A stretch of DNA of 64,000 nt from Chitinophagaceae bacterium (GTDB lineage: Bacteria; Bacteroidota; Bacteroidia; Chitinophagales; Chitinophagaceae), in contig JAYVUE010000024.1 in NCBI GenBank assembly GCA_043788195.1, positions 13,265 to 77,264 of the forward strand, given 5' to 3'. Position 1 is the stretch's first letter; each line of letters starts with the position of its first letter. Shown one piece after another: positions 36,161-50,488 of this stretch. The notes beneath the pieces were generated by a model. That model was given only the letters and a program-made list of their open reading frames with translations, was not told where the DNA came from and searched no databases. A program made the translations under genes and the position numbers.

Positions 36161-36493
36161 TTAAAGCCCTTTAGCACCTACAATAATTGCAACTATTACT
36201 CCAAACATGATTACCAACCCTGTCAGGAATATTAATTTATTTAAGTTTATAAATCTTCGTTGTTGAAATCTTGCATACATTGAACCCAAAAACGACATTA
36301 TACAATTGGCCATAAAAAATACTGTTGCAATTGCTGTTAGCTCATCTATTTTAGTTGTATCTGCAAGTTTTGTCGCCTGCAAATAAGATATGATCACAAA
36401 ACAAAAGCCCAACATTGTTGATGAGTTGGAAAAAAGGCTATTCTCTACATCTGCTGAGATGCTTTTATTTTCATAGTTTTTTTTCTGTTCCAT
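36161..36493 (-). CDS. Small hypothetical membrane protein (3 TM)
   Basis: SSTMLGFCFVII...IDELTAIA; three hydrophobic segments. Confidence 0.6.
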   Translation of the reverse strand: MEQKKNYENKSISADVENSLFSNSSTMLGFCFVIISYLQATKLADTTKIDELTAIATVFFMANCIMSFLGSMYARFQQRRFINLNKLIFLTGLVIMFGVIVAIIVGAKGL

Positions 36494-36575: not shown

Positions 36576-38192
36576 TCAGTCGTTTTGAGGAGCGTCACCC
36601 CATGTTCCATAACCAATGGGTTTTGCGCCTGATGGATTTGAACCAAAAGCATTCCACATTAAACCTTCAGTATAAGATGCTGCTGAAATAACAAATGTAA
36701 TATCCCTTTCTCTTACACCATATTTATTTCTCCACTCATCTGGCAATTGGTACCAGTTTCCCGAGTACCAAAGTTTTAAAATATTTCTTGTTACCGGCCC
36801 TGATTGAGGATCATTCAACAACTGTATTTTAATTTGTTCTTCTGTTTTTTGCAAGTCATCTTTATATTCCGATTGAATTTTTTTATACGTTTCTAAAATT
36901 TCAATAATAATTTCTTTTCCAACAATATCAATTATTTCTGATAAATAAACTTTTGCCAGGCCCGTTCCTTGTAATTGGTAAACAGAAAAGCCTGTTAATG
37001 GAACTGATAAGGCAAGAAAAGAATCTAGTTCACTTAATTTAAGATCAGCATTTAAATTTTTATTAACGGTTGTATCGTTTTGCAAATTTATTTGGGATGC
37101 AATGTTTACTTCAAATGTAGGCGCACCATTAAACTCTTCATTTCCAGGTATCGGGTTTCTAACCAAAGTATTAATCAGCGCTTTGATATGAAACATTTGG
37201 CTAACTGCAGGCATTAAAAGTTTGGGCTCGCCATTAAAAGCTTTCGTAAGGTTTTGTAAAAATTTACTGTAAAAATCATTGAACTGTTTTGATGCTGTTC
37301 CTATTTCGGAATCCGCTGGGTAATCATTTTGAACAATATTCTTTTTTATGGGATAAACAGCCGACCAATCAACCACTAAAGGTCCGCCACTTGGTTTACC
37401 TGGCTGATCACCAGGTTTATAATACTGTCCAAGTTTTAATTGTTCAAAACGATAATAATGTGCAATTTCTTTATCCGTATCTTCTATTGAATTTCTACTT
37501 CCTTCGCCCTGTTCTATAATTTGATCTATGGCTTCAATGGCCGACTCCATGTCATAAACAGGAATGATTGCTCCTCCGCTGGAATAATAATATTCTGAAG
37601 TGATCTGCCGGGCAATATCTCCGCTGAAAAGTTCATTCGGATATTTATTGTGTAAAAATTTAAATCCTTCAATTATTGCATCATAAAATTCTCCAATGGT
37701 ATAATAGTTCAGTTCGGGTGCTTCTTCATTTTTTGTTGCTTCATCCGTTTTAGCAAATCCTTTTGTATTGATAAGTGATTTTTTTCTACCTGGTCCCCCG
37801 GAAACGGGCTCTTTTCCTTTGTTTACTTTTGAAGGACGTTCTATCTTTAAAAAGGTTTCAAGTGTTTCTTTTGAAAATCCTGCTCTGCTAACCTCAAAAT
37901 CTGTTTCACCATCGGGCAAATGCGTTGGGTATTGTGCAACGAATCCTGGGTAATTTAAATCGGGTTGTCCGCCAATAGCATTCAATAAATTAACAGCAAG
38001 TGTTAAATGAAGCATTTCTTCAACTACTACAGTACGAATAATATTTGTAGCATCAAGGTTGGCAGTTGGTTTAATTGAATAAAGAGCAATTAAATAAGGT
38101 GGAATTGTTGCATGTTCTAATTGCATTGCAACTTTCAGGTAATATTGTAATTCCTTAATTGTTTGTATCGTATTTGAAGTATTATTTGCCAT
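36576..38192 (-). CDS. Ferritin-like (VioB-type) domain fused to a FAD-sorbitol-dehydrogenase small-subunit-like domain
   Basis: N-terminal AMQLEHATIPPYL...VVEEMLHL...EQGEG...AHYYRF; C-terminal FLALSVPLTGF...ILKLWYSGNW...YTEGLMW...GYGTW. Confidence 0.82.
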   Translation of the reverse strand: MANNTSNTIQTIKELQYYLKVAMQLEHATIPPYLIALYSIKPTANLDATNIIRTVVVEEMLHLTLAVNLLNAIGGQPDLNYPGFVAQYPTHLPDGETDFEVSRAGFSKETLETFLKIERPSKVNKGKEPVSGGPGRKKSLINTKGFAKTDEATKNEEAPELNYYTIGEFYDAIIEGFKFLHNKYPNELFSGDIARQITSEYYYSSGGAIIPVYDMESAIEAIDQIIEQGEGSRNSIEDTDKEIAHYYRFEQLKLGQYYKPGDQPGKPSGGPLVVDWSAVYPIKKNIVQNDYPADSEIGTASKQFNDFYSKFLQNLTKAFNGEPKLLMPAVSQMFHIKALINTLVRNPIPGNEEFNGAPTFEVNIASQINLQNDTTVNKNLNADLKLSELDSFLALSVPLTGFSVYQLQGTGLAKVYLSEIIDIVGKEIIIEILETYKKIQSEYKDDLQKTEEQIKIQLLNDPQSGPVTRNILKLWYSGNWYQLPDEWRNKYGVRERDITFVISAASYTEGLMWNAFGSNPSGAKPIGYGTWGDAPQND

Positions 38193-38226
38193 AATATTTA
38201 TATTTTAAACTCAACTTATTATTTTA

Positions 38227-40062
38227 TCATGCTTTTTTAAGATCATTAATTATACTTTCGGCTGAAAGAAAAGCTACAGCAGCTAATGTTAATGTAGGAT
38301 TGGATGTAGATATACTGACCGAACTTCCACATCCTACCAGGTAAAGGTTGTCGTGATCCCAACTTTTTTGGCGGTAATCAACAACGGAATTATTCTTATT
38401 TGTTCCCATGATATGTGTTCCGGCAAAATGATTTCCACCAAAACAAGAATATCCCTGGCCCTTGTAAGTTAAATAGCCAAAATCGGTTTCATTAAATTTT
38501 GTAAAATCCTGAGCACCTAATCGCTGAAACATTTCTTTTGAAAGTTCTCTGGCAAATGCCACGCTAGCCCGGGTATAATCTGAAATGCCATAAGTCAATA
38601 CCGGCTTATAGTTACCTATTGCATCTTTGTAATTGGGGTCTATTGTAACCTGGTTACTTTCTTCTGGCAACTGTTCAATCATATAAGTAAAAAGAAGTTG
38701 ATTGGAAACCCTGTTGATCATTCCTTTTTTTAATTCTTTTCCAAACATGTTTTTCATATCTACAAATTCTGTCAGGTCCGTATATGGGGAACCGGTAGCC
38801 CAACCCCATCCTAAATTCTGAATTTCTGCCCTGAAGGCAGCTCTATGTTTTCTGAAATTTCCGTTACGTAACTCATCAAAACCAGAAGTAGCCTGCGGAC
38901 CTCTCATTGTTCCGGCAGGTTCAGGTAATAATCCCCAGTTAAGAAAATAAGTATGATCCATTAAATTTTTTCCCATCAACTTACTTGTACCCGGAAGCTC
39001 TGATGCCAACATCAGTTTTGGATTTTCTACAGCATTAGTGGCAAGTACAAATATTCGTCCTTTTACTTTTCCTTCAGTGTATTGCGGAGAATTAGCCTCT
39101 TTATAATTTTTAAAATGAATGCAGGAAACTCTTCCGGTAGCTGTGTCAACTTCAACACGGGAGGCAACTGTTTGGCCAATAAAATCAATTTGCCTCGTTT
39201 TATCTATAGAAAATAAAGTTCTTCTTGCATCGTATTTTGCCTGCACCGGACATATAGGTGTGCAATTGGCATTGCCCTGGCAACGCTGACCATAATCCAC
39301 CTGGTGAGAGCTTGTTGCTCTTGTGGGAATATAACCTTTTCCTCCATCATAATTTTTATTGGGAACACCATTGCGGGCCTGTGGAGTTGTTCGCATTTTT
39401 AAAGTAAAAGATTCTCCATCTGATTCTACCTTCATACCATTAACGCCTTTTGCAACGATCTTATCAAGATAAGAAGGAGGAATTTCGTTCATTGGAAATA
39501 CATAACCGGGCTCAAACTTTAATCCATGAAAATTTTGTGATTCAACATCTCCTGAAACACCTAATTCAAATTCAGCCTTTCTATAGTAGGGCTCTAATTG
39601 ATCATAGGTAATTGGCCAGTCTTTTCCCTGTCCATATAATGTTTGTGATTTGAAATCATCTGGTAACATTCGAAAAGCACATGCCTGCCAATGCATAGTT
39701 GACCCTCCTGTAGATCTTAAATAAGTACTGTCTGTTGAGATTGGGCCATTATGAACAAAATAGCCATTAACGTTTGGAGGACCAGGTTTATATTTTGTTA
39801 CTTCATTGGCTTGCGGACTGTCTGCATTGGGATTGTGCGTGTATGGAGAGTTATTGTTTTTAATAACTTGCTTATAAAAAGTAACCAGGGAATCATGATA
39901 ACCTTCTATACTCAGATCGCCACTTTTTCCTGCTTCCATAACAAGTACTTTACGGCCGGCATTAGCTAACTCTTTTGCAACAATGGCACCTGCAACTCCG
40001 GCGCCAACTATTACAACATCGTAAACTGTATGTTCTAATGTTGAGATATCAATTTCTTTCAT
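38227..40062 (-). CDS. GMC-family FAD oxidoreductase with Cys-rich Fe-S motif
   Basis: GAGVAG Rossmann motif, GGSTMHW, CQGNANCTPICP, NLMDH, HFAGTHIMG, NPTLT. Confidence 0.92.
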   Translation of the reverse strand: MKEIDISTLEHTVYDVVIVGAGVAGAIVAKELANAGRKVLVMEAGKSGDLSIEGYHDSLVTFYKQVIKNNNSPYTHNPNADSPQANEVTKYKPGPPNVNGYFVHNGPISTDSTYLRSTGGSTMHWQACAFRMLPDDFKSQTLYGQGKDWPITYDQLEPYYRKAEFELGVSGDVESQNFHGLKFEPGYVFPMNEIPPSYLDKIVAKGVNGMKVESDGESFTLKMRTTPQARNGVPNKNYDGGKGYIPTRATSSHQVDYGQRCQGNANCTPICPVQAKYDARRTLFSIDKTRQIDFIGQTVASRVEVDTATGRVSCIHFKNYKEANSPQYTEGKVKGRIFVLATNAVENPKLMLASELPGTSKLMGKNLMDHTYFLNWGLLPEPAGTMRGPQATSGFDELRNGNFRKHRAAFRAEIQNLGWGWATGSPYTDLTEFVDMKNMFGKELKKGMINRVSNQLLFTYMIEQLPEESNQVTIDPNYKDAIGNYKPVLTYGISDYTRASVAFARELSKEMFQRLGAQDFTKFNETDFGYLTYKGQGYSCFGGNHFAGTHIMGTNKNNSVVDYRQKSWDHDNLYLVGCGSSVSISTSNPTLTLAAVAFLSAESIINDLKKA

Positions 40063-40118
40063 GGTTTTTATTTTTTGAGTTATTTATACTTATAAATAAT
40101 TTATTAAGCGCAGTAAAA

Positions 40119-40760
40119 TTATTGTGTCGAAGAGTTCTGAACAGTTCTGACGGGCCTTACATGAAACAGGTAAATTTTTTGATCTTTGGCTTGTTTACCA
40201 TTAATGAAACCTTGTATACATGGGCTTCCCGGTATAATTTCTGTGGCTCCCCAATAGAAACTATTAACAAAATTTCCAATTTTGTCTTTATTGAGGAAAA
40301 GTATATTTAATTCATCCACTGTAGGTAAGCGCCATCCGGTACCCAATTCAGTGCAGGCCTTGTTGGCCGCATCCCATTCCAGTGTTGCCATATCTGTACT
40401 CAATATTTCTAAATTTCCGATAGTAATTGTAGTTACAGAACGTACTGCCCGAACATGAAAGAGATAATTTTTATCATCGTTGGCTGTTTTGATTTCAACG
40501 AAGCTTTGAATATTTGCATTTGCAGGAGCCACTTCAACAGAGCTCCAGTAAAGGCTATTAACAAAGCCGCCAATTTTTTCTTTATTCATATAAAGTATAA
40601 GTAATTCATCTACTGTAGGTAAACGCCAACCAACGCCTAAAGCAGCGCAGGCATTTGAGGCATCCACCCATGGTTGAGTTGCTAAATCGTTTTTCATTAT
40701 TTCTAAATTGCCTATAATAATTGTGTCGTTAGCTGAAACCGAATTGATTTGATTGCTCAT
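40119..40760 (-). CDS. Tandem DUF1566/Lcl (C-type-lectin-like fold) domain protein
   Basis: Two ~97-aa repeats, each with W..A..AC..LG.GWRLPTVDEL...YW...VR.VR. Confidence 0.82.
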   Translation of the reverse strand: MSNQINSVSANDTIIIGNLEIMKNDLATQPWVDASNACAALGVGWRLPTVDELLILYMNKEKIGGFVNSLYWSSVEVAPANANIQSFVEIKTANDDKNYLFHVRAVRSVTTITIGNLEILSTDMATLEWDAANKACTELGTGWRLPTVDELNILFLNKDKIGNFVNSFYWGATEIIPGSPCIQGFINGKQAKDQKIYLFHVRPVRTVQNSSTQ

Positions 40761-40802
40761 TTTTTTTAATTTTTATATTATTGATAAAATTTTGATCTAA
40801 TG

Positions 40803-42188
40803 CTATGCAGTACTATTATTCCAAACAGGTATTGTACCACTTTCTGCTGAAACAGCATACACTTGTTCAGTAATTTTATTTTCATTTAATGTGATCATAA
40901 CAAATCCATTCAACACTCTTTTTTCAAGGCCGGGTTCATTATTTGGATTAGGCATTGGAGTTGTAGCATAATGATCAACGCCTTTTACAGGATTCCCTTC
41001 CGCATCATTTAATCCAAAAGCATTACCTATAGGAATAGCTGCATGGCCAAAACAACGAAGCTGTGGCGAAAGACCTGAAAGGCATTTATAGTTTCCCTGT
41101 GCCGAAGAATCGTTATAAACAATACCATTATGTATATGTCCATAATACCAATGATCGGGATAACGGTTTCCCAAAGCTGTATAAATTTGACTGAACAAAG
41201 GATCGTTAATCTTTGATCCATCAAAAGGCATTCCGGGGTGATGAGTCAACAAAACTATTCTTTGATCCTCTTTAATATTTAAATTTTTGATAAAAGTAAA
41301 TTGATCGGGATCATCCAATGCGCCGTTCAAATACAAAAAACTTTTATCATAATAACCGGTATCAAGACCAATAATTACCCAGTTACTATACAAAATGGCA
41401 AAGTAACTTGTATTATTTTGTTTAGTAAAAACAGGGTGAGTAAGTGCAGTTTTAAAATATCCATTGGCACCATCAAACATTTCATGATTACCAATCATTG
41501 TATAACTGGCAAGGCTGCCCGAAGGAAAATCAGGCAACAGGTTATGGGCCATCTGTTCTTCCCAACCGGCATAATATACATCGCCCAAATGAACGGTTAT
41601 ATCAGGACACAAATGGGTTATTGCTTTACTTACAAGTGATGAGGGTGATGAAAATCCAAAATCATTATATTTACCGGTGCCCCAATCTCCCATGATAGCA
41701 ATGGAAAGCGGTTTATCATAATCAATATTTAAAACAGAAGGTGTAGTTGCAAAAGGGGCAATTTCATTTGGAAATTCCTGGAATACTATATAAGAGATAA
41801 ATAGTTCAACCCAATTAGGGTCTAATCCTGCATAAGGTGAATTCTGGCAAAGTATTCCGTCAACTTCAACATAGCCGGGCTGATCTGTAACTGTTGACAA
41901 AAAAGAATCCATTGTATCTTTAGTTATCTCACTATCCGGCAATCCAAGTAACTTTAATGTATTGAAAACATCTGCATCAATTTCATTGTTTAATGTGTAA
42001 AGCAAATTGGCTGCTACAAGGCTTTCCGTTTTTTCAAGATCCATATTAAGCATAAACTTCACAAGAAATTGTTCATACTGCCCTAATGAATTCCAATAAG
42101 TTTGAAACCTTGATTTCGATGGAGGATCATTTTGTAGTCCTTTCAATCGTAGAATCATTGATTTTATCCTATCAGATAATTGTACCAT
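40803..42188 (-). CDS. Calcineurin-like metallophosphoesterase with N-terminal extension
   Basis: GDWGTG, HLGDVYY, GNHEM, THH, YGHIH. Confidence 0.88.
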   Translation of the reverse strand: MVQLSDRIKSMILRLKGLQNDPPSKSRFQTYWNSLGQYEQFLVKFMLNMDLEKTESLVAANLLYTLNNEIDADVFNTLKLLGLPDSEITKDTMDSFLSTVTDQPGYVEVDGILCQNSPYAGLDPNWVELFISYIVFQEFPNEIAPFATTPSVLNIDYDKPLSIAIMGDWGTGKYNDFGFSSPSSLVSKAITHLCPDITVHLGDVYYAGWEEQMAHNLLPDFPSGSLASYTMIGNHEMFDGANGYFKTALTHPVFTKQNNTSYFAILYSNWVIIGLDTGYYDKSFLYLNGALDDPDQFTFIKNLNIKEDQRIVLLTHHPGMPFDGSKINDPLFSQIYTALGNRYPDHWYYGHIHNGIVYNDSSAQGNYKCLSGLSPQLRCFGHAAIPIGNAFGLNDAEGNPVKGVDHYATTPMPNPNNEPGLEKRVLNGFVMITLNENKITEQVYAVSAESGTIPVWNNSTA

Positions 42189-42277
42189 AAATTATTTTCT
42201 ATAGTATTATTTGCCCGTATAAGTTTAAATTCCGGTTCTTTGATAGGGTAGCAGATTTTATTGTTTATTCAACAGTT

Positions 42278-43528
42278 CTATTTATTGTTATTGATAAACC
42301 TGGGTCCGTAAAAAACCGGTTTTGAAAGATCCGTGTATTTACTAATGAATTCAAATTCATCAGGATAGAGTGATGGTAATTGTTGAATAATGGAATCAGG
42401 TATTTGCTGACGGTTAATATTAAACGCAGTAAAAACCCTGAAGTCCATCATTCCATGAACAGCAGAACCAAGGCCTTTAGCCGTTTGTTGCATATTTGCA
42501 ACATCCTGAAATACATTATAATTGATCATTTTGCTTGCTGATGTGCTTAATGGGTTCCAGGCGCCGGTTGTTGCAGGGTTCCAAACCAGATCAAGTGTCA
42601 TCATCATATTTGAAAAGGCGGTATCAAAAGCCGTCAGCTGGGCACTTACATTGGGTCCGGCAACAGTATCAGGTGCATTAGGGTCTAAGGCCAAAATTTT
42701 TGCAAAGCCATCTGAAGGCATTGCCATAATATTAATTACGGCCGGCCAGCCGATTGCGGGGCCTTTGAAAAATTCCGATTCATTTTCACTGGTAAGTTTA
42801 CTGCCATCTGCCGGATCAAGATAGGAGTTGCCATAATGTAATGAGGCAAATTTGGCATAGTGTGATTCTTCGTATTCAAATTTTGCATTGGTTACAATAG
42901 AGTTGTTTGATGTTCCTTCGCCCTGTTCCGTTATTTCATCAATTCCCGAACACAACATTTCTACAGTATCTATATTTTTATTATAAATAAATTTGGGCAA
43001 CCCAATTGAATCAGGAACCTGTTTAGAAGCAGTTTTATTATTAGGATCTGTAGCTTGCTGACAAGCAGCAGTTATTTGGGGGCCATTTTCAATTATCGCT
43101 TTTTTTATTTTTTCATAGAATACACCAATTGTAGGATACTCCTCGGGAAGTTCCAATGCATCAATCAGAAATTTTGGCCTTTCTATCCGCATAAAATTTA
43201 GTAATTGAGCTTTGGAAAACTGTGCCAGGCCAATATTCAGATCGGGTTCAACACCACCGGGTAAACCTTTTACCGGGTAATTCACTTTAATATTCCTTAT
43301 GCCTGGAGTACCTCCAATAGCCGCAAGTAAATTTGAAGCAATTGCCATATGTACCATTTCTTCCATCGCCACACTTCTGATAAGATTGTAAGCGGTATAA
43401 TTTTGCACTTCAAGTGAAAACATAGCACACAGGTATGGAGGTAAGGTAGAAAACTCCAATTCAATGGCTGATTGTAATGATTGTTTGATCCAGTTCAGGT
43501 CCCTGGTATCTGTAGATGAATTAGTCAT
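42278..43528 (-). CDS. Ferritin-like (VioB-type) protein
   Basis: LQSAIELEFSTLPPYL, AMEEMVHM, FMRIERP, TIGVFY, EQGEG, ESHYAKF. Confidence 0.85.
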   Translation of the reverse strand: MTNSSTDTRDLNWIKQSLQSAIELEFSTLPPYLCAMFSLEVQNYTAYNLIRSVAMEEMVHMAIASNLLAAIGGTPGIRNIKVNYPVKGLPGGVEPDLNIGLAQFSKAQLLNFMRIERPKFLIDALELPEEYPTIGVFYEKIKKAIIENGPQITAACQQATDPNNKTASKQVPDSIGLPKFIYNKNIDTVEMLCSGIDEITEQGEGTSNNSIVTNAKFEYEESHYAKFASLHYGNSYLDPADGSKLTSENESEFFKGPAIGWPAVINIMAMPSDGFAKILALDPNAPDTVAGPNVSAQLTAFDTAFSNMMMTLDLVWNPATTGAWNPLSTSASKMINYNVFQDVANMQQTAKGLGSAVHGMMDFRVFTAFNINRQQIPDSIIQQLPSLYPDEFEFISKYTDLSKPVFYGPRFINNNK

Positions 43529-43548
43529 AGCATTCTTTATTTTTTAGA

Positions 43549-44478
43549 TTAAGCATATAAAAGAATATAGGAAATGTTATTTAAGCGGTAGGATAACATT
43601 TGACTGGATGCCGGAACAGGAGTTGTATTCAGGTTGGTCCATCCCTGGCAATCCGCATGAATTTTGTAAAAATTTATATTTTTTGCTTTAGCATCAAATG
43701 TGGCAAGGTAGGGCTCACCGTTAGACCATGGAACTATTGTAGAAAGAGAAACATCCAGTGCATTGGGAAGTAGTTTTTGCAGGTAACTGCCGATCTCTAC
43801 CGTTCCCATGGCAGGATTATCAAGGACATGATCAATATTTACATTCAGCTTAGATTTATTTATTTTAAAAAAGAAATTAGACTGGCCCAGTTGGAAAAAA
43901 GAAAAATCTTCCCAGCCTTTTGCCCACTGATGATACCAAACATTGAGCATGTTTAGTGGCGGAATTCCGCCGGCTGAAGATGATACAACTTCCAGGCTGA
44001 AAATAGCAACGGTACCCTTTACATCATCATATCCTAATACATATAATAACCCGGTAGCAACAAAAGGTGTGGTTTCACTGAAGTTCTGTGTAGGCCATGA
44101 TCTCATATTTGAAAATAAATAAGGTTTGGAAAGTGTATAATCTTTATTTATTTCATAAAATGCAAAAAATCCACCTTTGCTTTCATATCCCATCAGGTAA
44201 GGTTTATTACCAAGAACAAACATTTTTAAATTATCAAATTCATATAGATCCAGGTCGTTTGAATTTGAAATTAACTTTGTAATAAATGGTGCATCGCCGG
44301 TTATCTGGTAAACGTCTGTTTGCTTAAGTGTTTTATTATAAGCGTACAAAATGCAGTTATTTTCATCCCCCATTGTTACCATAGACGAATAACCTTCAGG
44401 CAAAATATTTGGATCTACTGAAACGTTTTGCAGTGATACACCTGCTGATGAAGATTGAACGGAAAGAATATTAATCAT
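43549..44478 (-). CDS. Hypothetical protein, beta-rich (possible propeller)
   Basis: Recurrent PYLMGYE / YVLGYD / PYLATFD strand motifs; no signal peptide. Confidence 0.65.
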   Translation of the reverse strand: MINILSVQSSSAGVSLQNVSVDPNILPEGYSSMVTMGDENNCILYAYNKTLKQTDVYQITGDAPFITKLISNSNDLDLYEFDNLKMFVLGNKPYLMGYESKGGFFAFYEINKDYTLSKPYLFSNMRSWPTQNFSETTPFVATGLLYVLGYDDVKGTVAIFSLEVVSSSAGGIPPLNMLNVWYHQWAKGWEDFSFFQLGQSNFFFKINKSKLNVNIDHVLDNPAMGTVEIGSYLQKLLPNALDVSLSTIVPWSNGEPYLATFDAKAKNINFYKIHADCQGWTNLNTTPVPASSQMLSYRLNNISYILLYA

Positions 44479-44560
44479 AATTGTGTTTTTAATAGTTAAT
44501 AATAATTTATGTTTAGATCAATGATTCAACATATAATTGAAATGGATCATCATACAATTT

Positions 44561-45358
44561 TTATATCACCGGGTTGGTTTTAAGCGGCCGGTTTAATTGA
44601 ATATTCAGTGATGCGTTTTCGGGTTTGGTATAATCAATACCATTCCATTTATTCCATAAGCCTGCTTTTAGTTTCATTGTAAGAGGGATGGTTTTTAATT
44701 GAACCTGAACCAGGGCTACAAAAGGATCAAGGCAGTTTGAAAAATTTTTGACAGTGGTTGCCGCATGCACCCATGCAACAGCATAATCATTGCCGCAACA
44801 AACTAATGTTGCATCAATTCCTTTGGGTGCGTTCTTTTGGAAATCGGCGGCCCATTTATAAACTGAAGAAATAAAACCGGCAACAGTTTGAGATGCGGGC
44901 CTTGCGCCAACAACATGCAATGTTTTTCCAAACATCCAATCGGCAGGATTATTAAAAAGAAAATAAGGTTGTTCTATTTTGAATCCTGTAGCTGCAGTTG
45001 GAAATGCTACCGGCACTTCTGATGTGGCACTGCGAGTCATATCATATGCATCACCATGTAAATTCGAATAGATGCGAACAGCGGTAGCACCTTCGGCAAG
45101 ATCATGCGATTGGGGAGTAGCCCAAAACATAAGTGCAGTTTGGTCAGGCACACCGGCAGGTTTATTGGTATTTGGTACAAGTGTTGGCACATAGGCACGG
45201 AGGCCAACTGTTGGTTGCAAGAGTGCACATGCAGGAACAAATACACTGCCAAGAAAAGCTGCAAACTTTGCATAAGTTAATGGTGGTGGTGCCATGTATC
45301 CCCGCCAAACATAAACCGAATCAGGAGCGACAGGATAAGATTTTATTTTTGTTGCCAT
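44561..45358 (-). CDS. Hypothetical protein, paralog of 45373..46158 (possible EthD-like alpha+beta barrel)
   Basis: Shared motifs PD.V.VWRGY, AKF...LG.VF.PA, PD.TA..FW, ADWM.G, N.Q..R. Confidence 0.7.
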   Translation of the reverse strand: MATKIKSYPVAPDSVYVWRGYMAPPPLTYAKFAAFLGSVFVPACALLQPTVGLRAYVPTLVPNTNKPAGVPDQTALMFWATPQSHDLAEGATAVRIYSNLHGDAYDMTRSATSEVPVAFPTAATGFKIEQPYFLFNNPADWMFGKTLHVVGARPASQTVAGFISSVYKWAADFQKNAPKGIDATLVCCGNDYAVAWVHAATTVKNFSNCLDPFVALVQVQLKTIPLTMKLKAGLWNKWNGIDYTKPENASLNIQLNRPLKTNPVI

Positions 45359-45372
45359 GATAAATTATGATT

Positions 45373-46158
45373 TTAAAAGTTAGTATCTCTTTCAAATTGT
45401 AAATTAAAACTGCTACCCGGCTGTACATCCATTCCGGCCCAAACATCATAAATATCAATTGGCAGAAAAGTAGGAGAAGGTGTAAAAACCTGGTTCCACC
45501 CTGTAAGCATCGGAAGTAATAAAGGAATACCCGTTACCGGTGTATTAGTGCCGGGCGAAGCTGAGCATAATTCCCAATAAACTAAATATTCATCACCTAT
45601 GCATGCAATGGCGCCATCCAATCCTGGATTAAGATTTTGTATTTTAGTTAAAGCTGCTGCTACATTAGTTCTGAAAGTAGCTATGTCTACATCCCGGGGA
45701 CGTTCGGCCACAATATGAGAAATTGTTCCATTCATCCAGTCTGCATCTTTATTGATAAGGAACACAGGAGCATCGGGATTCAAAGAAGATACTCCTGAAA
45801 ACAAAACAGGAAAATCAGCCCTGCTTAATGGTTGCCCGGTGGTGATATAAACTCCGCCATGAGTGATTGTATAAGTTCTGACAGCTAATCTTTTAAACCC
45901 ATTCCAATATGTTTCCTGTGATTTCCAGAAATTTATTGCTGTCTCATCCGGCACCCAATCGGGCTTGCCTGCTAAACCTGCAAGTGCCGTGGGTGTGTAG
46001 GAATGAAAGCCTGCATTGATCTGCAACTTAACTGTTGCCGGAATAAAAACAGTTCCCAGTAAAGAATAAAATTTTGCCAAAGGAAGTGTTGTTAATCTAT
46101 ACCCTCTCCATACCCTAACTGCATCAGGTGCTGTTAAAACGATATTACTTTGTGCCAT
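45373..46158 (-). CDS. Hypothetical protein, paralog of 44561..45358 (possible EthD-like alpha+beta barrel)
   Basis: Same shared motifs as its neighbour. Confidence 0.7.
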   Translation of the reverse strand: MAQSNIVLTAPDAVRVWRGYRLTTLPLAKFYSLLGTVFIPATVKLQINAGFHSYTPTALAGLAGKPDWVPDETAINFWKSQETYWNGFKRLAVRTYTITHGGVYITTGQPLSRADFPVLFSGVSSLNPDAPVFLINKDADWMNGTISHIVAERPRDVDIATFRTNVAAALTKIQNLNPGLDGAIACIGDEYLVYWELCSASPGTNTPVTGIPLLLPMLTGWNQVFTPSPTFLPIDIYDVWAGMDVQPGSSFNLQFERDTNF

Positions 46159-46190
46159 GTTTAATCATTTTTTATTTGAAAATATTTTTG

Positions 46191-49064
46191 TTAAGGTTTC
46201 CCATTTTCAACAATATAGGCTGCAACTTTTTCAAGAAAACCTGCAGGGGGAGATTGTTCGGCAGGCTTATCATATTTACATCCCAGCGGAAATTGCCAGT
46301 ATTGATTTACACAAAACTTACAGGCGCCTCCTGTACGGCTTAAATATTGTTTAGTTTCATCGTAGGTCAATTCATGGTTATCATACATATTTATCAATAC
46401 TGCAGCCATCGATTTATGCGCATCATAATAAAAAGGCTCAAGCTGATGATATAAGTCGGGGTAATTTTCTTTCAGCTTCTTTTTTGATTCTGCTGCTGTA
46501 TCAGTTTGCATTTGAATTTCGCGATAATAATCAGGATGTTTTATGTCTTCAGGCAAAATCGTGAAACCGTTAATTGGGATCATTGCATTTTGAAAATCTG
46601 TTAATGCTGCTATCTCTTTAAATTTATCAGGACTTAATCTGTATTGAGGAAGGAAAAAAACATTGAATGAAAAATGCGGGGTAATAACCAGCCTTGTTTT
46701 ACTTTTATAAGCTATACCATCAATGGTAAAATCAAAATTTACATATACCGGGTCATTGGGCCTGCTTGTTTCCCTGAGAAGGGTATAGGATTGATCTGCG
46801 GGGTGTTCTGATATTTTTCCGGGCTCAACAAATTTGCCAAAAATACTATAAAACATTTTCCAGCTGGATTCGCTGACAATAAATAATACTGCCGGCATTG
46901 ACTGAACAAATTGTTTTACAACCCAGGCATTTTTTGAAACGCAATTATCAACAATGGTCTCCATCTGGTTGCCCAAAAATCCCTGTGTCCAATGCGGCGA
47001 TGCACATGCTACCATATCTATCTGCGAAACATCTTCACCGATATGTAAATTCGCACTTGTAATTCCTTTTGCTTTTAAATAGTTTTGGAAATCCAGTAAT
47101 GGATAGCCAAATTGCATATAATAGCTTTGTTGTTCCTGCATGATCTCCAATTGTATTCCTTCGGGAACTGCAACTTTTCCGGCAATAATATCACCTGCTT
47201 TAAACTCACTGGTAGCGCCCATTGTATCATAGAAAAGCATGTATGGAAAATCACCCTTTGCTGCATTAAGTGAAATAACATTATCGGTGGCAAAGCCTTC
47301 ATACCTAACACTAAAGCTCCAGCTTGGGTTATCATCAGGCCTTGGTGCATTGGTAACTTTACCATCATGCGGGGCATATACTGCACCGTCGGGTAAAATA
47401 TATTTTTTTATAAAATCAAAAGAAACTTTTTCCTGGTACACTGAACGATAACGATAATACCAGGCATACTTAGCCCATTCATTGGTATTATCATCCGATG
47501 TGAAATTTGGATAAGCCCATGCCGCTCCGTTTTGTCCGGGTGCAAATGCAGTAAGATTAGGATTGATTCCAATGGTCATGATCGGCGCTTTTCGGCAACC
47601 GTCAATTACTTCGCCATTTGGGAACGAAGGTGGCCTTGTACGACCGGTAGCCCATGGTGCGTTGTATGTATCAGGTGTACGATTGGCCTGATAAGGAACG
47701 TTGATATCAAAACTAAATGCGGTATAGGGTCCGTACACAGCGTCTTGTTTATCATCTGGCCAGAAAAATTTGCAGGTACCGCATGACCTGACTTCGTAAA
47801 CTAATTTTATTTCCAGCGGATCATCTGTCCCTGGTGATTTTGTAAATCGAACGGGATTATAAACAGCAGAACCTTCACCGGCAATAGTTGCCCATGTGGC
47901 CAACGCCCCGTTGAAACTTGTATATAAACCAAAGTTAGAATAGATCAGACCTGACCAGTCACCTCTTACTGTATCTGCAATAGTTGCACCCGACTGTGTT
48001 TTATTGGGTACAACAGGATCTGAAATATTTCGAATACATGCAAATCTCACACCCATTGCATTGGCTTGTCTTGCAATGATAGCATCATCCATTTCAAGAA
48101 AGGCATATGTATCTGCTTCATCTCCATCAGCAATAAAATAAAAATCGGTAGTGAGCAGGGGGGCATCTTTAAGTGACTGAATTTTTGGAGTACCTAAACA
48201 AGCCGGATCAATACCATTATTCACCAGGTCTGATAATTGTAAAGAACTTACTGAAGGATCATTTTTATGTTTAGCCAAAAGTTGCTTAAATAAATTTTCA
48301 AGCACCTCATGTGTAACAACCGTATTTAACTTCATCAAAAGATTATCCTGAACTTCATTAATAATAGCAGTTGCCGGATACCAGGTAGGACACCTGTACG
48401 AACTGCCGTTGCCGGCATCAATAGTATTTTGAGGACGTTGCAGATCCAGTATTGCTGAATTGGCAATTACTGAATCGCCCAGGTATTGATTTAATCTTGC
48501 ACCACCTGCTGTACCAATTGTATAAACTACATTAGCTTTTGTGTCTGTTAATATACATTTCATCATAGCCGAAAGACCGTCTATCCATGGTGAATGAGCC
48601 AGGTGAGAATTTGATTTAAACAACAATACACGCCAGGGGCGATGACTTTGATCAGTAATTTCTACCATTTGAAATAATCCCCAAAGAGTTCCTGATTTTG
48701 GATCAGCAAAATAGTTTTCAGCTCCCCTTGTATATTCATGCCATTCTTTTCTCCATTCCTTATCATAAGAACCGGATTCAGTTGAACTGTTTAAAAAAAT
48801 ATGATCAAAGGCCTGCCATTCTGCACTTGTCCAGGTTATTACAATCCAGTCTGCAGCAGGTAATGGATCACCCGGCTTCCTTTTACCAATATCAATTTTT
48901 TTGGGTGCTTTATGGCCAATCACCCCCCAGTCAATAACAGGCAATTTTACATTTACGGAATAAGTGGATTCTGTTAAAGCATCTGTATGACGGTTGGGAA
49001 TTGCAGTTGCTGCATTCAACTGTAAAGAACTTATGTTTGTTGAAGACTCAAAAGTTTCACTCAT
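46191..49064 (-). CDS. 957-aa fusion: nucleoside phosphorylase/nucleosidase (PNP_UDP_1-like) domain plus Cys-rich, possibly UDG-like domain
   Basis: N-half YTIGTAGG...GDSVIAN...LEMDD...IRNISD; C-half CGTC, MTIGINPN, DMVACAS, ITPHFS, CKFC...GC. Confidence 0.7.
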   Translation of the reverse strand: MSETFESSTNISSLQLNAATAIPNRHTDALTESTYSVNVKLPVIDWGVIGHKAPKKIDIGKRKPGDPLPAADWIVITWTSAEWQAFDHIFLNSSTESGSYDKEWRKEWHEYTRGAENYFADPKSGTLWGLFQMVEITDQSHRPWRVLLFKSNSHLAHSPWIDGLSAMMKCILTDTKANVVYTIGTAGGARLNQYLGDSVIANSAILDLQRPQNTIDAGNGSSYRCPTWYPATAIINEVQDNLLMKLNTVVTHEVLENLFKQLLAKHKNDPSVSSLQLSDLVNNGIDPACLGTPKIQSLKDAPLLTTDFYFIADGDEADTYAFLEMDDAIIARQANAMGVRFACIRNISDPVVPNKTQSGATIADTVRGDWSGLIYSNFGLYTSFNGALATWATIAGEGSAVYNPVRFTKSPGTDDPLEIKLVYEVRSCGTCKFFWPDDKQDAVYGPYTAFSFDINVPYQANRTPDTYNAPWATGRTRPPSFPNGEVIDGCRKAPIMTIGINPNLTAFAPGQNGAAWAYPNFTSDDNTNEWAKYAWYYRYRSVYQEKVSFDFIKKYILPDGAVYAPHDGKVTNAPRPDDNPSWSFSVRYEGFATDNVISLNAAKGDFPYMLFYDTMGATSEFKAGDIIAGKVAVPEGIQLEIMQEQQSYYMQFGYPLLDFQNYLKAKGITSANLHIGEDVSQIDMVACASPHWTQGFLGNQMETIVDNCVSKNAWVVKQFVQSMPAVLFIVSESSWKMFYSIFGKFVEPGKISEHPADQSYTLLRETSRPNDPVYVNFDFTIDGIAYKSKTRLVITPHFSFNVFFLPQYRLSPDKFKEIAALTDFQNAMIPINGFTILPEDIKHPDYYREIQMQTDTAAESKKKLKENYPDLYHQLEPFYYDAHKSMAAVLINMYDNHELTYDETKQYLSRTGGACKFCVNQYWQFPLGCKYDKPAEQSPPAGFLEKVAAYIVENGKP

Positions 49065-49121
49065 AAATATTAGTTTTATTAAATTGACAATAATTTATGT
49101 GACAATAAATTTGTTATACAA

Positions 49122-50333
49122 TTATTTTTTCTTCGCAGCCTTTGCTTTTGTTTTCGGTTTTTTTGCAACAATTTTTTTCATTGGCGCTTTTTTCTTCACG
49201 GCTTTTTTTGCCGGCGCTTTTTTTACTTTGGTAATTTTTTTTTGATTAACGGATCGGGGATTACTTGTTCTGAGCGTAACATCGGAAAGCATTTTATCAA
49301 GGTCTTCTACAAGGTCGTCGCATATAAATGCTACTGTTCCTCCACTTCGATTTTCCATTGTTATGGTGAAATTGATATCACCAACACATATAAATCTTAA
49401 TTTTTCATTTGCTGCAGAAACCGCAAGTTTTGCATGATCATTTTCTTCTGACCATTGCCAGGGGGGCTTAATACCCAGGGGGCCGGTGTTAACCCATTTC
49501 ATCTCCTGAATGGTATGCACTTTACTCCCCTTTTCAACAGAACCAGGTGGTTTACCATGTTCCCATGTTTCTACATCCAGCGTTTCTGCAAGTGTAGGGC
49601 CCACGAGGTCATTATAAAAGTCATCGTCGCCCCTGGTATCCCAGAATTTATTTTTTGCAAAACATTTAAAAACCTGTCCATTTTTTGATTGAAAAGGAAT
49701 AAAATTTGCGTAAGCGGTTTTGGCAGGTGTAATTTTATTATTTATTAATAGTGCTCTTGGATCAGTTGCTTTTAAAGCTGCCGGAACTTTAGATGCTAAA
49801 TATACATTGGGTTGTTGTGCAACATACTGTTGCGTAGCAATTGCAGTGGCGGTATCTGCATTTTTTAACGTAATACATAAAAAAGTTTGTGCATTTCCCA
49901 TGGCTGTTGCCGGAAAACCGTATTTGCCCTTGAGTGGAAATTTTGGCGCTGAATGGATCAACCAAAAAGCAGAGTTTGTTTTCAGGTTAAAACAAATTAC
50001 CCCCTTTGTATGGCCCCTGATCCCATTGGTTTTTCCTGAGATCGGATCTTCATCATTATAAAAATACCAACCCATATCAGGATCGCTTAAGTTATTGTAG
50101 ATCTGGTTAAGTGTGCTGGAAACTGCCCCGTTTTTAGGATCAGTGATCTGGTTTTCAGAAAGATCCAAATCTTTATCTGTTGGTCCGCTGGAGTCATAAT
50201 AAAGGTACTCGGATCCCTTTGGTTTTTTTCCATTTATGGCAACCGATTTTCCGGCAATTTTGTAAATAAACCACCAGTCAACTGGTTTACCATCATCCCC
50301 CATTGCCGAAAGTTGTACACTAGTGTTTCCCAT
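49122..50333 (-). CDS. Deoxyribonuclease II family protein with Lys/Ala-rich C-terminal tail
   Basis: GKPVDWWFIYK, GHTKG and DHAK (two PLD-type HxK motifs), WLIHSAPKFP, QTFLCIT, CVGDIN...RSGG; tail KKAPAKKAVKKKAPMKK. Confidence 0.88.
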   Translation of the reverse strand: MGNTSVQLSAMGDDGKPVDWWFIYKIAGKSVAINGKKPKGSEYLYYDSSGPTDKDLDLSENQITDPKNGAVSSTLNQIYNNLSDPDMGWYFYNDEDPISGKTNGIRGHTKGVICFNLKTNSAFWLIHSAPKFPLKGKYGFPATAMGNAQTFLCITLKNADTATAIATQQYVAQQPNVYLASKVPAALKATDPRALLINNKITPAKTAYANFIPFQSKNGQVFKCFAKNKFWDTRGDDDFYNDLVGPTLAETLDVETWEHGKPPGSVEKGSKVHTIQEMKWVNTGPLGIKPPWQWSEENDHAKLAVSAANEKLRFICVGDINFTITMENRSGGTVAFICDDLVEDLDKMLSDVTLRTSNPRSVNQKKITKVKKAPAKKAVKKKAPMKKIVAKKPKTKAKAAKKK

Positions 50334-50425
50334 ATATTTTGTTTTAATATTTTTTTATTGAATGCAATTAATTTTTTTTGATCAGTTGTTGATGCTGGCT
50401 TATTGATCTTCATCGGTATAAAAAA

Positions 50426-50488
50426 TCACAGGTCAATTGGTTTTCCATTATGATCAATTGCCGTTAATGGCGATTTTGAATTTCCCAT
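50426..50488 (-). pseudogene. Degenerate duplicate of the DNase II 5' end (20-codon ORF)
   Basis: MGNSKSPLTAIDHNGKPIDL* aligns without gaps to MGNTSVQLSAMGDDGKPVDWW. Confidence 0.6.

What the first reader, a model, noticed from the sequence alone, without database searches (positions are those of the whole stretch)
36576..50488. Ten-gene cytoplasmic cluster joining DNA/nucleoside-attacking enzymes with a ferritin-like/GMC redox module
Seen: ten co-directional genes with 14-89 bp gaps, inserted between housekeeping genes behind a very AT-rich leader, none with an evident Sec or Tat signal. Order: DNase II, PNP/UDG-like fusion, two paralogs, beta-rich protein, ferritin-like, phosphoesterase, 2xDUF1566, GMC, ferritin-like/small-subunit fusion. 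Established: DNase II leaves 3'-phosphates, calcineurin-like enzymes remove phosphates, PNP-fold enzymes cleave N-glycosidic bonds, GMC enzymes oxidise sugar hydroxyls; PNP and calcineurin-like domains are also known anti-phage effectors; VioB-type ferritin-like domains do oxidative coupling. Inference: the activities chain as DNA to nucleotide to nucleoside to oxidised product. Alternatives are (a) anti-phage or suicide defence, (b) biosynthesis of a nucleoside/base-derived metabolite, (c) catabolism of modified DNA. I know no described system with this composition.
Basis: partly seen in the sequence, partly recalled or inferred. Interest (0 to 1): 0.88.

Follow-up and report, generated by a model that had tools for sequence, protein, structure and literature searches.

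The report
DNA-to-base disassembly line with swappable oxidases
A rare gene cassette shared by distant bacteria joins an acid-type DNase, a phosphoesterase and a predicted two-headed base-releasing enzyme to interchangeable oxidases, and likely strips DNA or nucleotides down to free bases and oxidises them; it is the genomic home of the one bacterial DNase II structure found in the PDB search.

Summary
The ten co-directional genes are real, but they are two modules. A seven-gene core (DNase II, nucleosidase-glycosylase fusion, two EthD/ABM-like barrels, beta-propeller, ferritin-like protein, metallophosphoesterase) recurs in Bacteroidota, Acidobacteriota and Burkholderia; in B. thailandensis it is BTH_II0389-0383, headed by the crystallised pH 4-5 DNase II. 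The GMC plus ferritin/small-subunit pair is a separate sugar-dehydrogenase module found on about 100 plasmids; this GMC joins the core in 1 of 88 related loci. Structure prediction gives an MTAN-type hydrolase fused to an unannotated UDG-fold domain with eight invariant cysteines. A distant variant replaces DNase II/phosphoesterase with GDPD/HAD. Best reading (0.45): a phosphoester-to-free-base-to-oxidised-product pathway, with an acid-gated DNA entry step. Anti-phage defence is possible (0.2) but no PADLOC model matches. No description was found in ten literature searches. No activity beyond the orthologous DNase II is shown.

The parts
50426..50488 (-). 20-codon remnant resembling the DNase II N-terminus; not the gene start
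49122..50333 (-). DNase II, both HxK motifs intact (H108/K110, H300/K302), no signal peptide, Lys/Ala-rich C-terminal tail
   Evidence: Pfam E 6.5e-70; PDB 5i3e/5unb E 1.6e-57; alignment
47871..49064 (-). N-terminal domain of the 957-aa fusion: MTAN/PNP-fold, predicted nucleosidase (E82, R345, S348, D349)
   Evidence: AF2 pLDDT 90.5; Z 18.6, rmsd 3.4, 217 aligned to 4l0m; residues invariant in 40 of 40
46191..47870 (-). C-terminal domain of the fusion: expanded UDG-fold, GINPN and HFS motifs, eight conserved Cys; a separate gene in many loci
   Evidence: Z 9.7, rmsd 4.4, 192 aligned to 2d3y; Atlas
45373..46158 (-). Paralogue A: duplicated dimeric alpha+beta barrel (EthD/ABM-like)
   Evidence: AF2 pLDDT 93.7; Z 9.7 to 3mcs, 9.4 to 9lmn; Foldseek 5f9p E 1e-5
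44561..45358 (-). Paralogue B of the same family; fused to A in L009
43549..44478 (-). Probable lectin-like beta-propeller of ~50-residue repeats; fused to a PNP domain in two database proteins
   Evidence: repeat profile matches up to 96%; Atlas features
42278..43528 (-). Ferritin-like protein of the core (PF12902), conserved E25, E56/E57, H60, E204, E220/H223
40803..42188 (-). Calcineurin-like metallophosphoesterase, a non-orthologous stand-in for the usual core enzyme
40119..40760 (-). Two Lcl_C (DUF1566) domains; accessory
   Evidence: 1 of 88 loci
38227..40062 (-). FAD glucose/fructose-dehydrogenase-type GMC subunit with the three-Cys 3Fe-4S motif; accessory module
   Evidence: PDB 6a2u E 1.3e-66
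36576..38192 (-). Second ferritin-like domain fused to a small-subunit-like domain; two separate genes in rhizobia and Persicobacter; accessory module
36161..36493 (-).

Best explanation
The conserved core is likely a cytoplasmic disassembly line that would take DNA or nucleotides to free bases plus sugar and then oxidise the products, while the GMC/ferritin/small-subunit pair is a sugar-dehydrogenase module added locally. Inferred steps: DNase II cuts DNA only once the surroundings turn acid (shown for the B. thailandensis orthologue) and leaves 3'-phosphates; the metallophosphoesterase removes phosphates; two N-glycosidases of complementary specificity, an MTAN-type hydrolase (purines) and a predicted Fe-S UDG-fold enzyme (deaminated or modified bases), release the bases; a di-iron ferritin-like enzyme and two cofactor-free barrels oxidise or rearrange the base, a job given to a Mo-hydroxylase, DyP or GMC in other lineages; here the added dehydrogenase would oxidise the freed sugar. 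With no transporter or regulator in the cassette, it most likely acts on the cell's own or engulfed-cell DNA during stress, death or lysis rather than on imported food.
For: Same seven genes in Acidobacteriota, Bacteroidota and Burkholderia with shuffled order; 15 of 88 loci hold PNP+barrel+propeller+ferritin despite short contigs. Fusions tie the parts: PNP-UDG, A-B (L009), propeller-PNP. Catalytic residues invariant. A redox gene lies beside the UDG-like gene in 33 of 46 loci of 10 kb or more: ferritin-like 18, XDH-like 7, DyP 4, other GMC 4, and XDH and DyP types each fall in more than one branch of the tree. A distant variant in Azospirillum and Pyrinomonadaceae has HAD, GMC + small subunit, GDPD, PNP and UDG-amidohydrolase in one run. 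This genome's second PNP copy follows XDH genes. High cross-phylum identity (42-72%) suits small-molecule enzymes. All seven B. thailandensis genes rise 1.4-3.2-fold in stationary phase.
Against: No substrate or product is shown for any gene except the orthologous DNase II. DNase II is in only 15 of 46 long loci, and in 3 of 400 sampled genomes of this phylum it sits in an unrelated cluster, so DNA need not be the input. The UDG match is modest (Z 9.7, 12% identity). The stationary-phase rise is small, one gene is not significant (FDR 0.24), none is on the paper's DEG sheet, and the opposite-strand neighbour rises 2-fold too; six accessions searched are absent from the proteome file. Related loci include near-duplicates, so counts overstate independence. 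Some loci have conflict-type neighbours (TIR/STAND, type I RM, MBL-peptidase pair).
Confidence: 0.45

Rival explanations
1. An abortive anti-phage system: infection acidifies or de-energises the cell, DNase II and the nucleosidase destroy DNA and (d)NTPs, the UDG-fold domain senses or excises modified phage bases.
For: PNP-fold ATP nucleosidases are proven defence effectors (bioRxiv 10.1101/2023.01.24.525353, passages). Rare and patchy: 0 of 60 relatives with the UDG half, 0 of 400 others in the phylum of G061. No transporter or regulator. A few loci have TIR/STAND, RM or NucC-like neighbours.
Against: No PADLOC model matches beyond an FAD motif. Only 12 of 125 flanking ORFs hit PADLOC at 1e-10, nine of them generic kinase, MBL, ABC or radical-SAM domains (no background run). 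The site is not a clear defence hotspot: one of 18 syntenic relatives has another insert. Repeated pairing with XDH, DyP and GMC is not explained.
Confidence: 0.2
2. A biosynthetic cluster for a nucleoside- or base-derived specialised metabolite, with DNase II and phosphoesterase only supplying precursor.
For: EthD/ABM barrels and PF12902 proteins resemble tailoring enzymes; BTH_II0386 rises 6.7-fold with trimethoprim, which wakes secondary metabolism; DNase II is optional.
Against: No exporter, ligase, transferase or resistance gene in the core; only 1 of 6 tags searched passes the 5-fold list; swapping among four oxidase chemistries fits one defined product poorly.
Confidence: 0.15
3. An acid-armed cocktail released on lysis inside a predator's food vacuole or in acid biofilm, harming the predator or competitor by DNA breakdown and peroxide.
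For: Acid optimum with no signal peptide; the propeller's distant relatives are tails on astacin, M64, C1, S8 proteases and tyrosinase; reb (R-body) and tyrosinase genes flank L010.
Against: reb genes were found in L010 only, among all loci then held and not in this genome; no delivery device is conserved.
Confidence: 0.1
4. Ordinary salvage or catabolism of environmental DNA for C, N and P, or a chance pile-up of unrelated modules.
For: XDH and class II aldolase neighbours; the window is demonstrably mosaic.
Against: No uptake or secretion genes; low expression; fusions and cross-phylum synteny exclude chance for the core.
Confidence: 0.1

Closest known systems
Burkholderia thailandensis DNase II, BTH_II0389 (PDB 5i3e/5unb; PMC5449587)
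   Same: Homologue (E 1.6e-57); both HxK motifs; no signal peptide; first gene of the same seven-gene cassette.
   Different: The paper's passages treat the enzyme alone; the word operon does not occur in it. The window's copy has a basic tail.
MTA/SAH nucleosidase (MtnN) and Cap17/Detocs ATP nucleosidases
   Same: NP-I fold, Z 18.6; N-terminal Glu and R-x-x-S-D motif kept.
   Different: About 380 aa, 9-17% identity; EMEA becomes EMDD; fused to a UDG-fold; no sensor, STAND or cyclase partner.
Family 4/5 Fe-S uracil-DNA glycosylases (2d3y, 1l9g, UdgX 6ail)
   Same: Fold match over about 190 residues; CxxC...C...C pattern and motif-B His in the expected order (pattern recalled).
   Different: 560 aa with large insertions and four further Cys; motif A reads GINPN (family-2-like, recalled); no Pfam UDG hit; not in a repair context.
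FAD glucose/fructose dehydrogenase alpha-gamma-beta complexes (6a2u, 8hdd, 7w2j)
   Same: Catalytic subunit E 1e-66 with the three-Cys motif.
   Different: No cytochrome c subunit, no Tat signal; a ferritin-like domain is fused to the small-subunit-like domain.
VioB/RebD-type ferritin-like domain (PF12902; 3hl1)
   Same: Domain and acidic/His ligands conserved.
   Different: Stand-alone domain; 23 bits against 1250 for VioB; no tryptophan-oxidase partner.

Membership tests
DNase II | Pfam match and two HxK motifs | tested here: met
DNase II | Metal-independent cleavage at acid pH | not testable with these tools
   shown only for the B. thailandensis orthologue (PMC5449587 passages)
MTAN/PNP (NP-I) nucleosidases | NP-I fold | tested here: met
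   Z 18.6, rmsd 3.4, 217 aligned; Foldseek E 6e-10
MTAN/PNP (NP-I) nucleosidases | Catalytic Glu, ribose-binding EME, R-x-x-S-D | tested here: inconclusive
   EMDD and RNISD align to MTAN EMEA/RAISD; E82 invariant but its match to MTAN Glu12 is by recalled motif; the second Glu is Asp
Cap17/Detocs ATP nucleosidase clade | Placement in the Cap17 clade | not tested
   no reference sequences were held; preprint supplements closed
Cap17/Detocs ATP nucleosidase clade | Enrichment next to defence systems | tested here: inconclusive
   12 of 125 flanking ORFs, mostly generic domains, no background
UDG superfamily | UDG alpha/beta fold with motifs A and B | tested here: met
   Z 9.7/8.9/8.6 to three UDGs; Atlas TM 0.74 by target and feature score 0.90; GINPN and H797 conserved. 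Modest scores.
Family 4/5 UDG | Four-Cys 4Fe-4S site | tested here: inconclusive
   C428, C431, C687, C708 invariant in 82 of 82 (C687 partly forced by the search pattern, but also conserved in the unbiased protein set); geometry not measured
Family 4/5 UDG | Excises uracil from DNA | not testable with these tools
   needs assay
EthD/ABM dimeric alpha+beta barrel | Ferredoxin-like barrel fold | tested here: met
   fold only, function not implied
VioB | Full-length ~1000-aa synthase above cut-off | tested here: not met
FAD-GDH/FDH complex | Catalytic subunit with 3Fe-4S Cys motif | tested here: met
FAD-GDH/FDH complex | Adjacent cytochrome c subunit | tested here: not met
   none among the ORFs of the insertion
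FAD-GDH/FDH complex | Small (gamma) subunit | tested here: inconclusive
   no Pfam hit for the window domain; a 39%-identical rhizobial ORF has FAD-SLDH E 0.006, below cut-off
Catalogued anti-phage systems (PADLOC 2.0) | Component models match | tested here: not met
   0 of 11 proteins beyond a 30-residue FAD motif

The most novel reading that the evidence does not exclude
A new class of bacterial system, a lysosome without a membrane: a pH-gated DNase II feeds a fused pair of N-glycosidases, one a new two-metal-site UDG family acting on nucleotides or modified DNA, and swappable oxidases turn the freed bases into a toxic or signalling product when the cell is infected, dying or eaten.
Probability: 0.25. 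Interest if true: 0.92.

Novelty: categorically new. Interest (0 to 1): 0.76.

Why it matters
Bacterial DNase II has been read as a lone gene taken from eukaryotes; its place at the head of a conserved cross-phylum cassette makes its role directly testable in a laboratory strain that already has the structure. The 560-residue UDG-fold family (658 proteins) matches no Pfam, NCBIfam or PDB sequence and is labelled 'GTPase' or 'hypothetical' in databases; a UDG-fold enzyme working in small-molecule metabolism, or on modified DNA, would extend a much-used enzyme fold. The repeated exchange of oxidases points to unknown base chemistry. The novelty rating concerns composition; the mechanism is unproven.

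Tried and rejected
Ten genes as one conserved unit: rejected. R-body link: one locus only. Phage origin: no match in 50,697 phage records. Defence hotspot at this site: not supported. Promoter/terminator scan: 71 and 16 sites against 59 and 11.7 by chance, uninformative, and sigma-70 rules may not fit this phylum. Sequence searches of PDB with the fusion, UDG, barrel and propeller profiles: nothing significant. Complex prediction of barrel A with the propeller: no answer, score 0.00. Sequencing runs: no RNA holder listed; in one of four DNA runs 36.3-39.9 kb (GMC module) is almost uncovered while the core is covered, but no contig joins across it, so nothing is concluded. Direct comparison of the small-subunit-like domain with a Gluconate_2-dh3 protein: no similarity. 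The two halves of the barrel protein show no sequence repeat. The propeller was not folded; no Atlas answer was obtained for the barrel family. Supplements of PMC10272358 and PMC10100664 gave no row for the cassette; four files of PMC7042699 were unreadable scans. Four look-ups of earlier scan findings returned nothing.
Full report
Observation. Ten minus-strand ORFs of 403, 957, 261, 265, 309, 416, 461, 213, 611 and 538 aa lie between 50333 and 36576, 14-89 bp apart, behind a 25% GC leader. An eleventh, 110-aa membrane gene follows. The host is inferred to be Bacteroidota from a type IX signal domain next door; the DNA is held by four sediment runs of one study. The block is an insertion: of 25 same-genus genomes from which I fetched the region, 18 have the LTD and pfkB flanks in one stretch, several directly adjacent, and none of the 26 stretches carries the cassette. 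Among 60 relatives one has the PNP half only.

What the genes are. Gene 1 is DNase II with both HxK motifs. Gene 2 folds confidently (pLDDT 90.5). Residues 70-398 match MTA/SAH nucleosidases (Z 18.6); E82, R345, S348 and D349 are invariant in 40 of 40 close homologues and the EMDD/RNISD stretch aligns with MTAN, which points to a hydrolase (the role of each residue is recalled). Residues 416-900 match family 4/5 uracil-DNA glycosylases (Z 9.7, 8.9, 8.6; 12-16% identity), and the Atlas agrees for a stand-alone homologue. GINPN, HFS and eight Cys are conserved in 79-82 of 82 sequences; DMVAC and C490 were part of the search patterns, so their conservation there is partly circular, but the independent protein set shows the same. 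Genes 3 and 4 are paralogous duplicated alpha+beta barrels of EthD/ABM type. Gene 5 has ~50-residue repeats and lectin-like Atlas neighbours (leads at 0.87-0.95); of 30 longer proteins sharing the domain that I scanned, two carry a PNP domain, six a protease domain and one a tyrosinase. Genes 6 and 10 are PF12902 ferritin-like, far below the VioB cut-off. Gene 7 is a calcineurin-like phosphoesterase, gene 8 has two Lcl_C domains, gene 9 is closest to FAD glucose dehydrogenase.

Two modules. The core recurs in a Pyrinomonadaceae, Spirosomataceae, Aquimarina, Saprospiraceae and Flavobacteriales genome (some split over contigs) and on two Burkholderia plasmids. Of 88 loci with the UDG-like gene, 59 hold the PNP gene, 45 barrel A, 36 the propeller, 20 the ferritin-like gene, 20 the phosphoesterase, 17 DNase II, 5 any GMC, 1 Lcl_C (many contigs are short; the metagenome scan kept 80 of 167 confirmed places). 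In contrast the gene 10 region matches 99 plasmid records at 80% cover or more and gene 9 matches 104, against 2 for the core; the three inspected lie among glycosidases and sugar isomerases with no core gene. Five core-bearing genomes have no close gene 9 or 10 with these queries (best E 1e-17; several are incomplete). The window is mosaic: genes 1-5 are closest to L004/L005/L013 (65-77%), genes 6, 8 and 9 to L051 (65-69%), and gene 7 has only 21-23% identity to the usual core phosphoesterase. An earlier scan note, e1-2466947, describes the GMC module on its own; it agrees with what I had already found and is not counted as evidence.

The redox link is general. In 33 of 46 loci of 10 kb or more a redox gene lies beside the UDG-like gene: ferritin-like 18, xanthine-dehydrogenase-like 7, DyP 4, another GMC type 4. 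XDH-like and DyP neighbours each occur in more than one branch of a FastTree of 82 UDG domains (no test of order or direction was run; several loci are near-duplicates). A distant variant in Azospirillum and in a second locus of the Pyrinomonadaceae genome runs HAD, small subunit, GMC, GDPD, PNP, UDG-like fused to an amidohydrolase, subtilase: phosphoester hydrolases replaced by unrelated ones, same order of chemistry. This genome's second PNP copy follows XDH genes.

A model organism has it. The crystallised DNase II is BTH_II0389 (PMC5449587, passages): active at pH 4-5, inactive at neutral pH, no signal peptide. A supplement of PMC12322963 (table rows only) lists BTH_II0389-0383 on one strand with lengths 1053, 2907, 783, 804, 1623, 939, 1155 nt and matching labels; L010 has 1056, 2943, 783, 804, 1626, 930, 1149, and B. 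thailandensis proteins fall in the homologue clusters. I matched them this way, not by DNA alignment. Counts are low (33-220) and all seven rise 1.4-3.2-fold in stationary phase; one is not significant, none is on the DEG sheet, the opposite-strand neighbour also doubles, and six accessions searched are absent from the proteome file. With trimethoprim one of six tags searched rises 6.7-fold (PMC7042699, table S2 part 1). This is weak support for co-regulation.

Mechanism. Shown: gene content, conservation, fusions, predicted folds, intact motifs, and acid DNase activity of an orthologue. Inferred: phosphoester hydrolysis, base release by two N-glycosidases, oxidation of base and sugar. I put this pathway reading at 0.45. 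DNase II is optional (15 of 46 long loci) and occurs in an unrelated cluster in 3 of 400 sampled genomes, so the fixed point is the nucleosidase-glycosylase pair, not DNA. Defence (0.2) has precedent in ATP nucleosidases (bioRxiv 10.1101/2023.01.24.525353, passages) and fits rarity (0 of 400 others), but no PADLOC model matches and 12 of 125 flanking ORFs hit, nine generic (125 of 161 listed ORFs were sent, no background); against my reading, TIR/STAND, type I RM, NucC-like and MBL-peptidase neighbours occur in some loci. Metabolite biosynthesis (0.15), an anti-predator cocktail (0.1) and plain catabolism (0.1) remain.

Novelty. Ten full-text searches returned no paper whose listing describes the cassette; the locus tags BTH_II0386-0391 occur only in the structure paper. 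Other hits were seen as listings and abstracts only. The library lacks most subscription journals and bioRxiv supplements were closed, so a description in a large supplementary table cannot be excluded. Verdict: the ten-gene unit is a local mosaic, the seven-gene core and its oxidase swapping are real and undescribed in what I could search; interest 0.76.

Noticed in passing
window 49122-49260 (-): DNase II ends in a ~45-residue Lys/Ala/Pro-rich, histone-like tail that the closest homologue (L004, 368 aa) lacks.
   Followed up: no
window 50426-50488 (-): 20-codon remnant resembling the DNase II N-terminus upstream of the real start; possible trace of duplication or of the insertion.
   Followed up: partly
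L157 2269-10728 (G000:C47): Second operon in this genome: 308-aa unknown, cytochrome P460-like protein, two XDH genes, stand-alone PNP paralogue (44%); the P460-like/PNP pair recurs in G014 (L002).
   Followed up: partly
L114 421-13140 and L012 8940-20271: Distant sister system: (UDG), HAD-hemerythrin, small subunit, GMC, GDPD, PNP, UDG-like fused to amidohydrolase, subtilase.
   Followed up: partly
L125 3712-18672, L127, L129-L130: A different conserved DNase II cluster in one Bacteroidota genus: STAND kinase-cyclase, glutathione synthetase, DNase II, GCS2 ligase, HAD; the G848 DNase II has an in-frame stop.
   Followed up: partly
L010 28751-32286: R-body (rebB) genes with Crp and ECF regulators directly downstream of the core, tyrosinase upstream; only in this locus.
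   Followed up: yes
L017, L018, L034, L037, L044, L052, L059: An MBL-fold protein plus a ~640-aa unannotated protein repeatedly flank the PNP-UDG fusion.
   Followed up: partly
L041, L073, L077, L078, L086, L088, L092: DyP-type variant carries two further unannotated conserved genes (~128 aa and ~234 aa).
   Followed up: no
L133 3009-8147: One relative has a different insert at the same site, starting with an ORF that looks DUF262-like (recalled motif, not scanned).
   Followed up: no
L010 18834-21776: RefSeq names the PNP-UDG fusion 'GTPase'; neither the fold nor Pfam supports that.
   Followed up: yes
B. thailandensis BTH_II0381-0382; L014 16906-18159: A class II aldolase lies next to the core in both, and a UDG-superfamily gene in B. 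thailandensis; could handle the sugar product.
   Followed up: no
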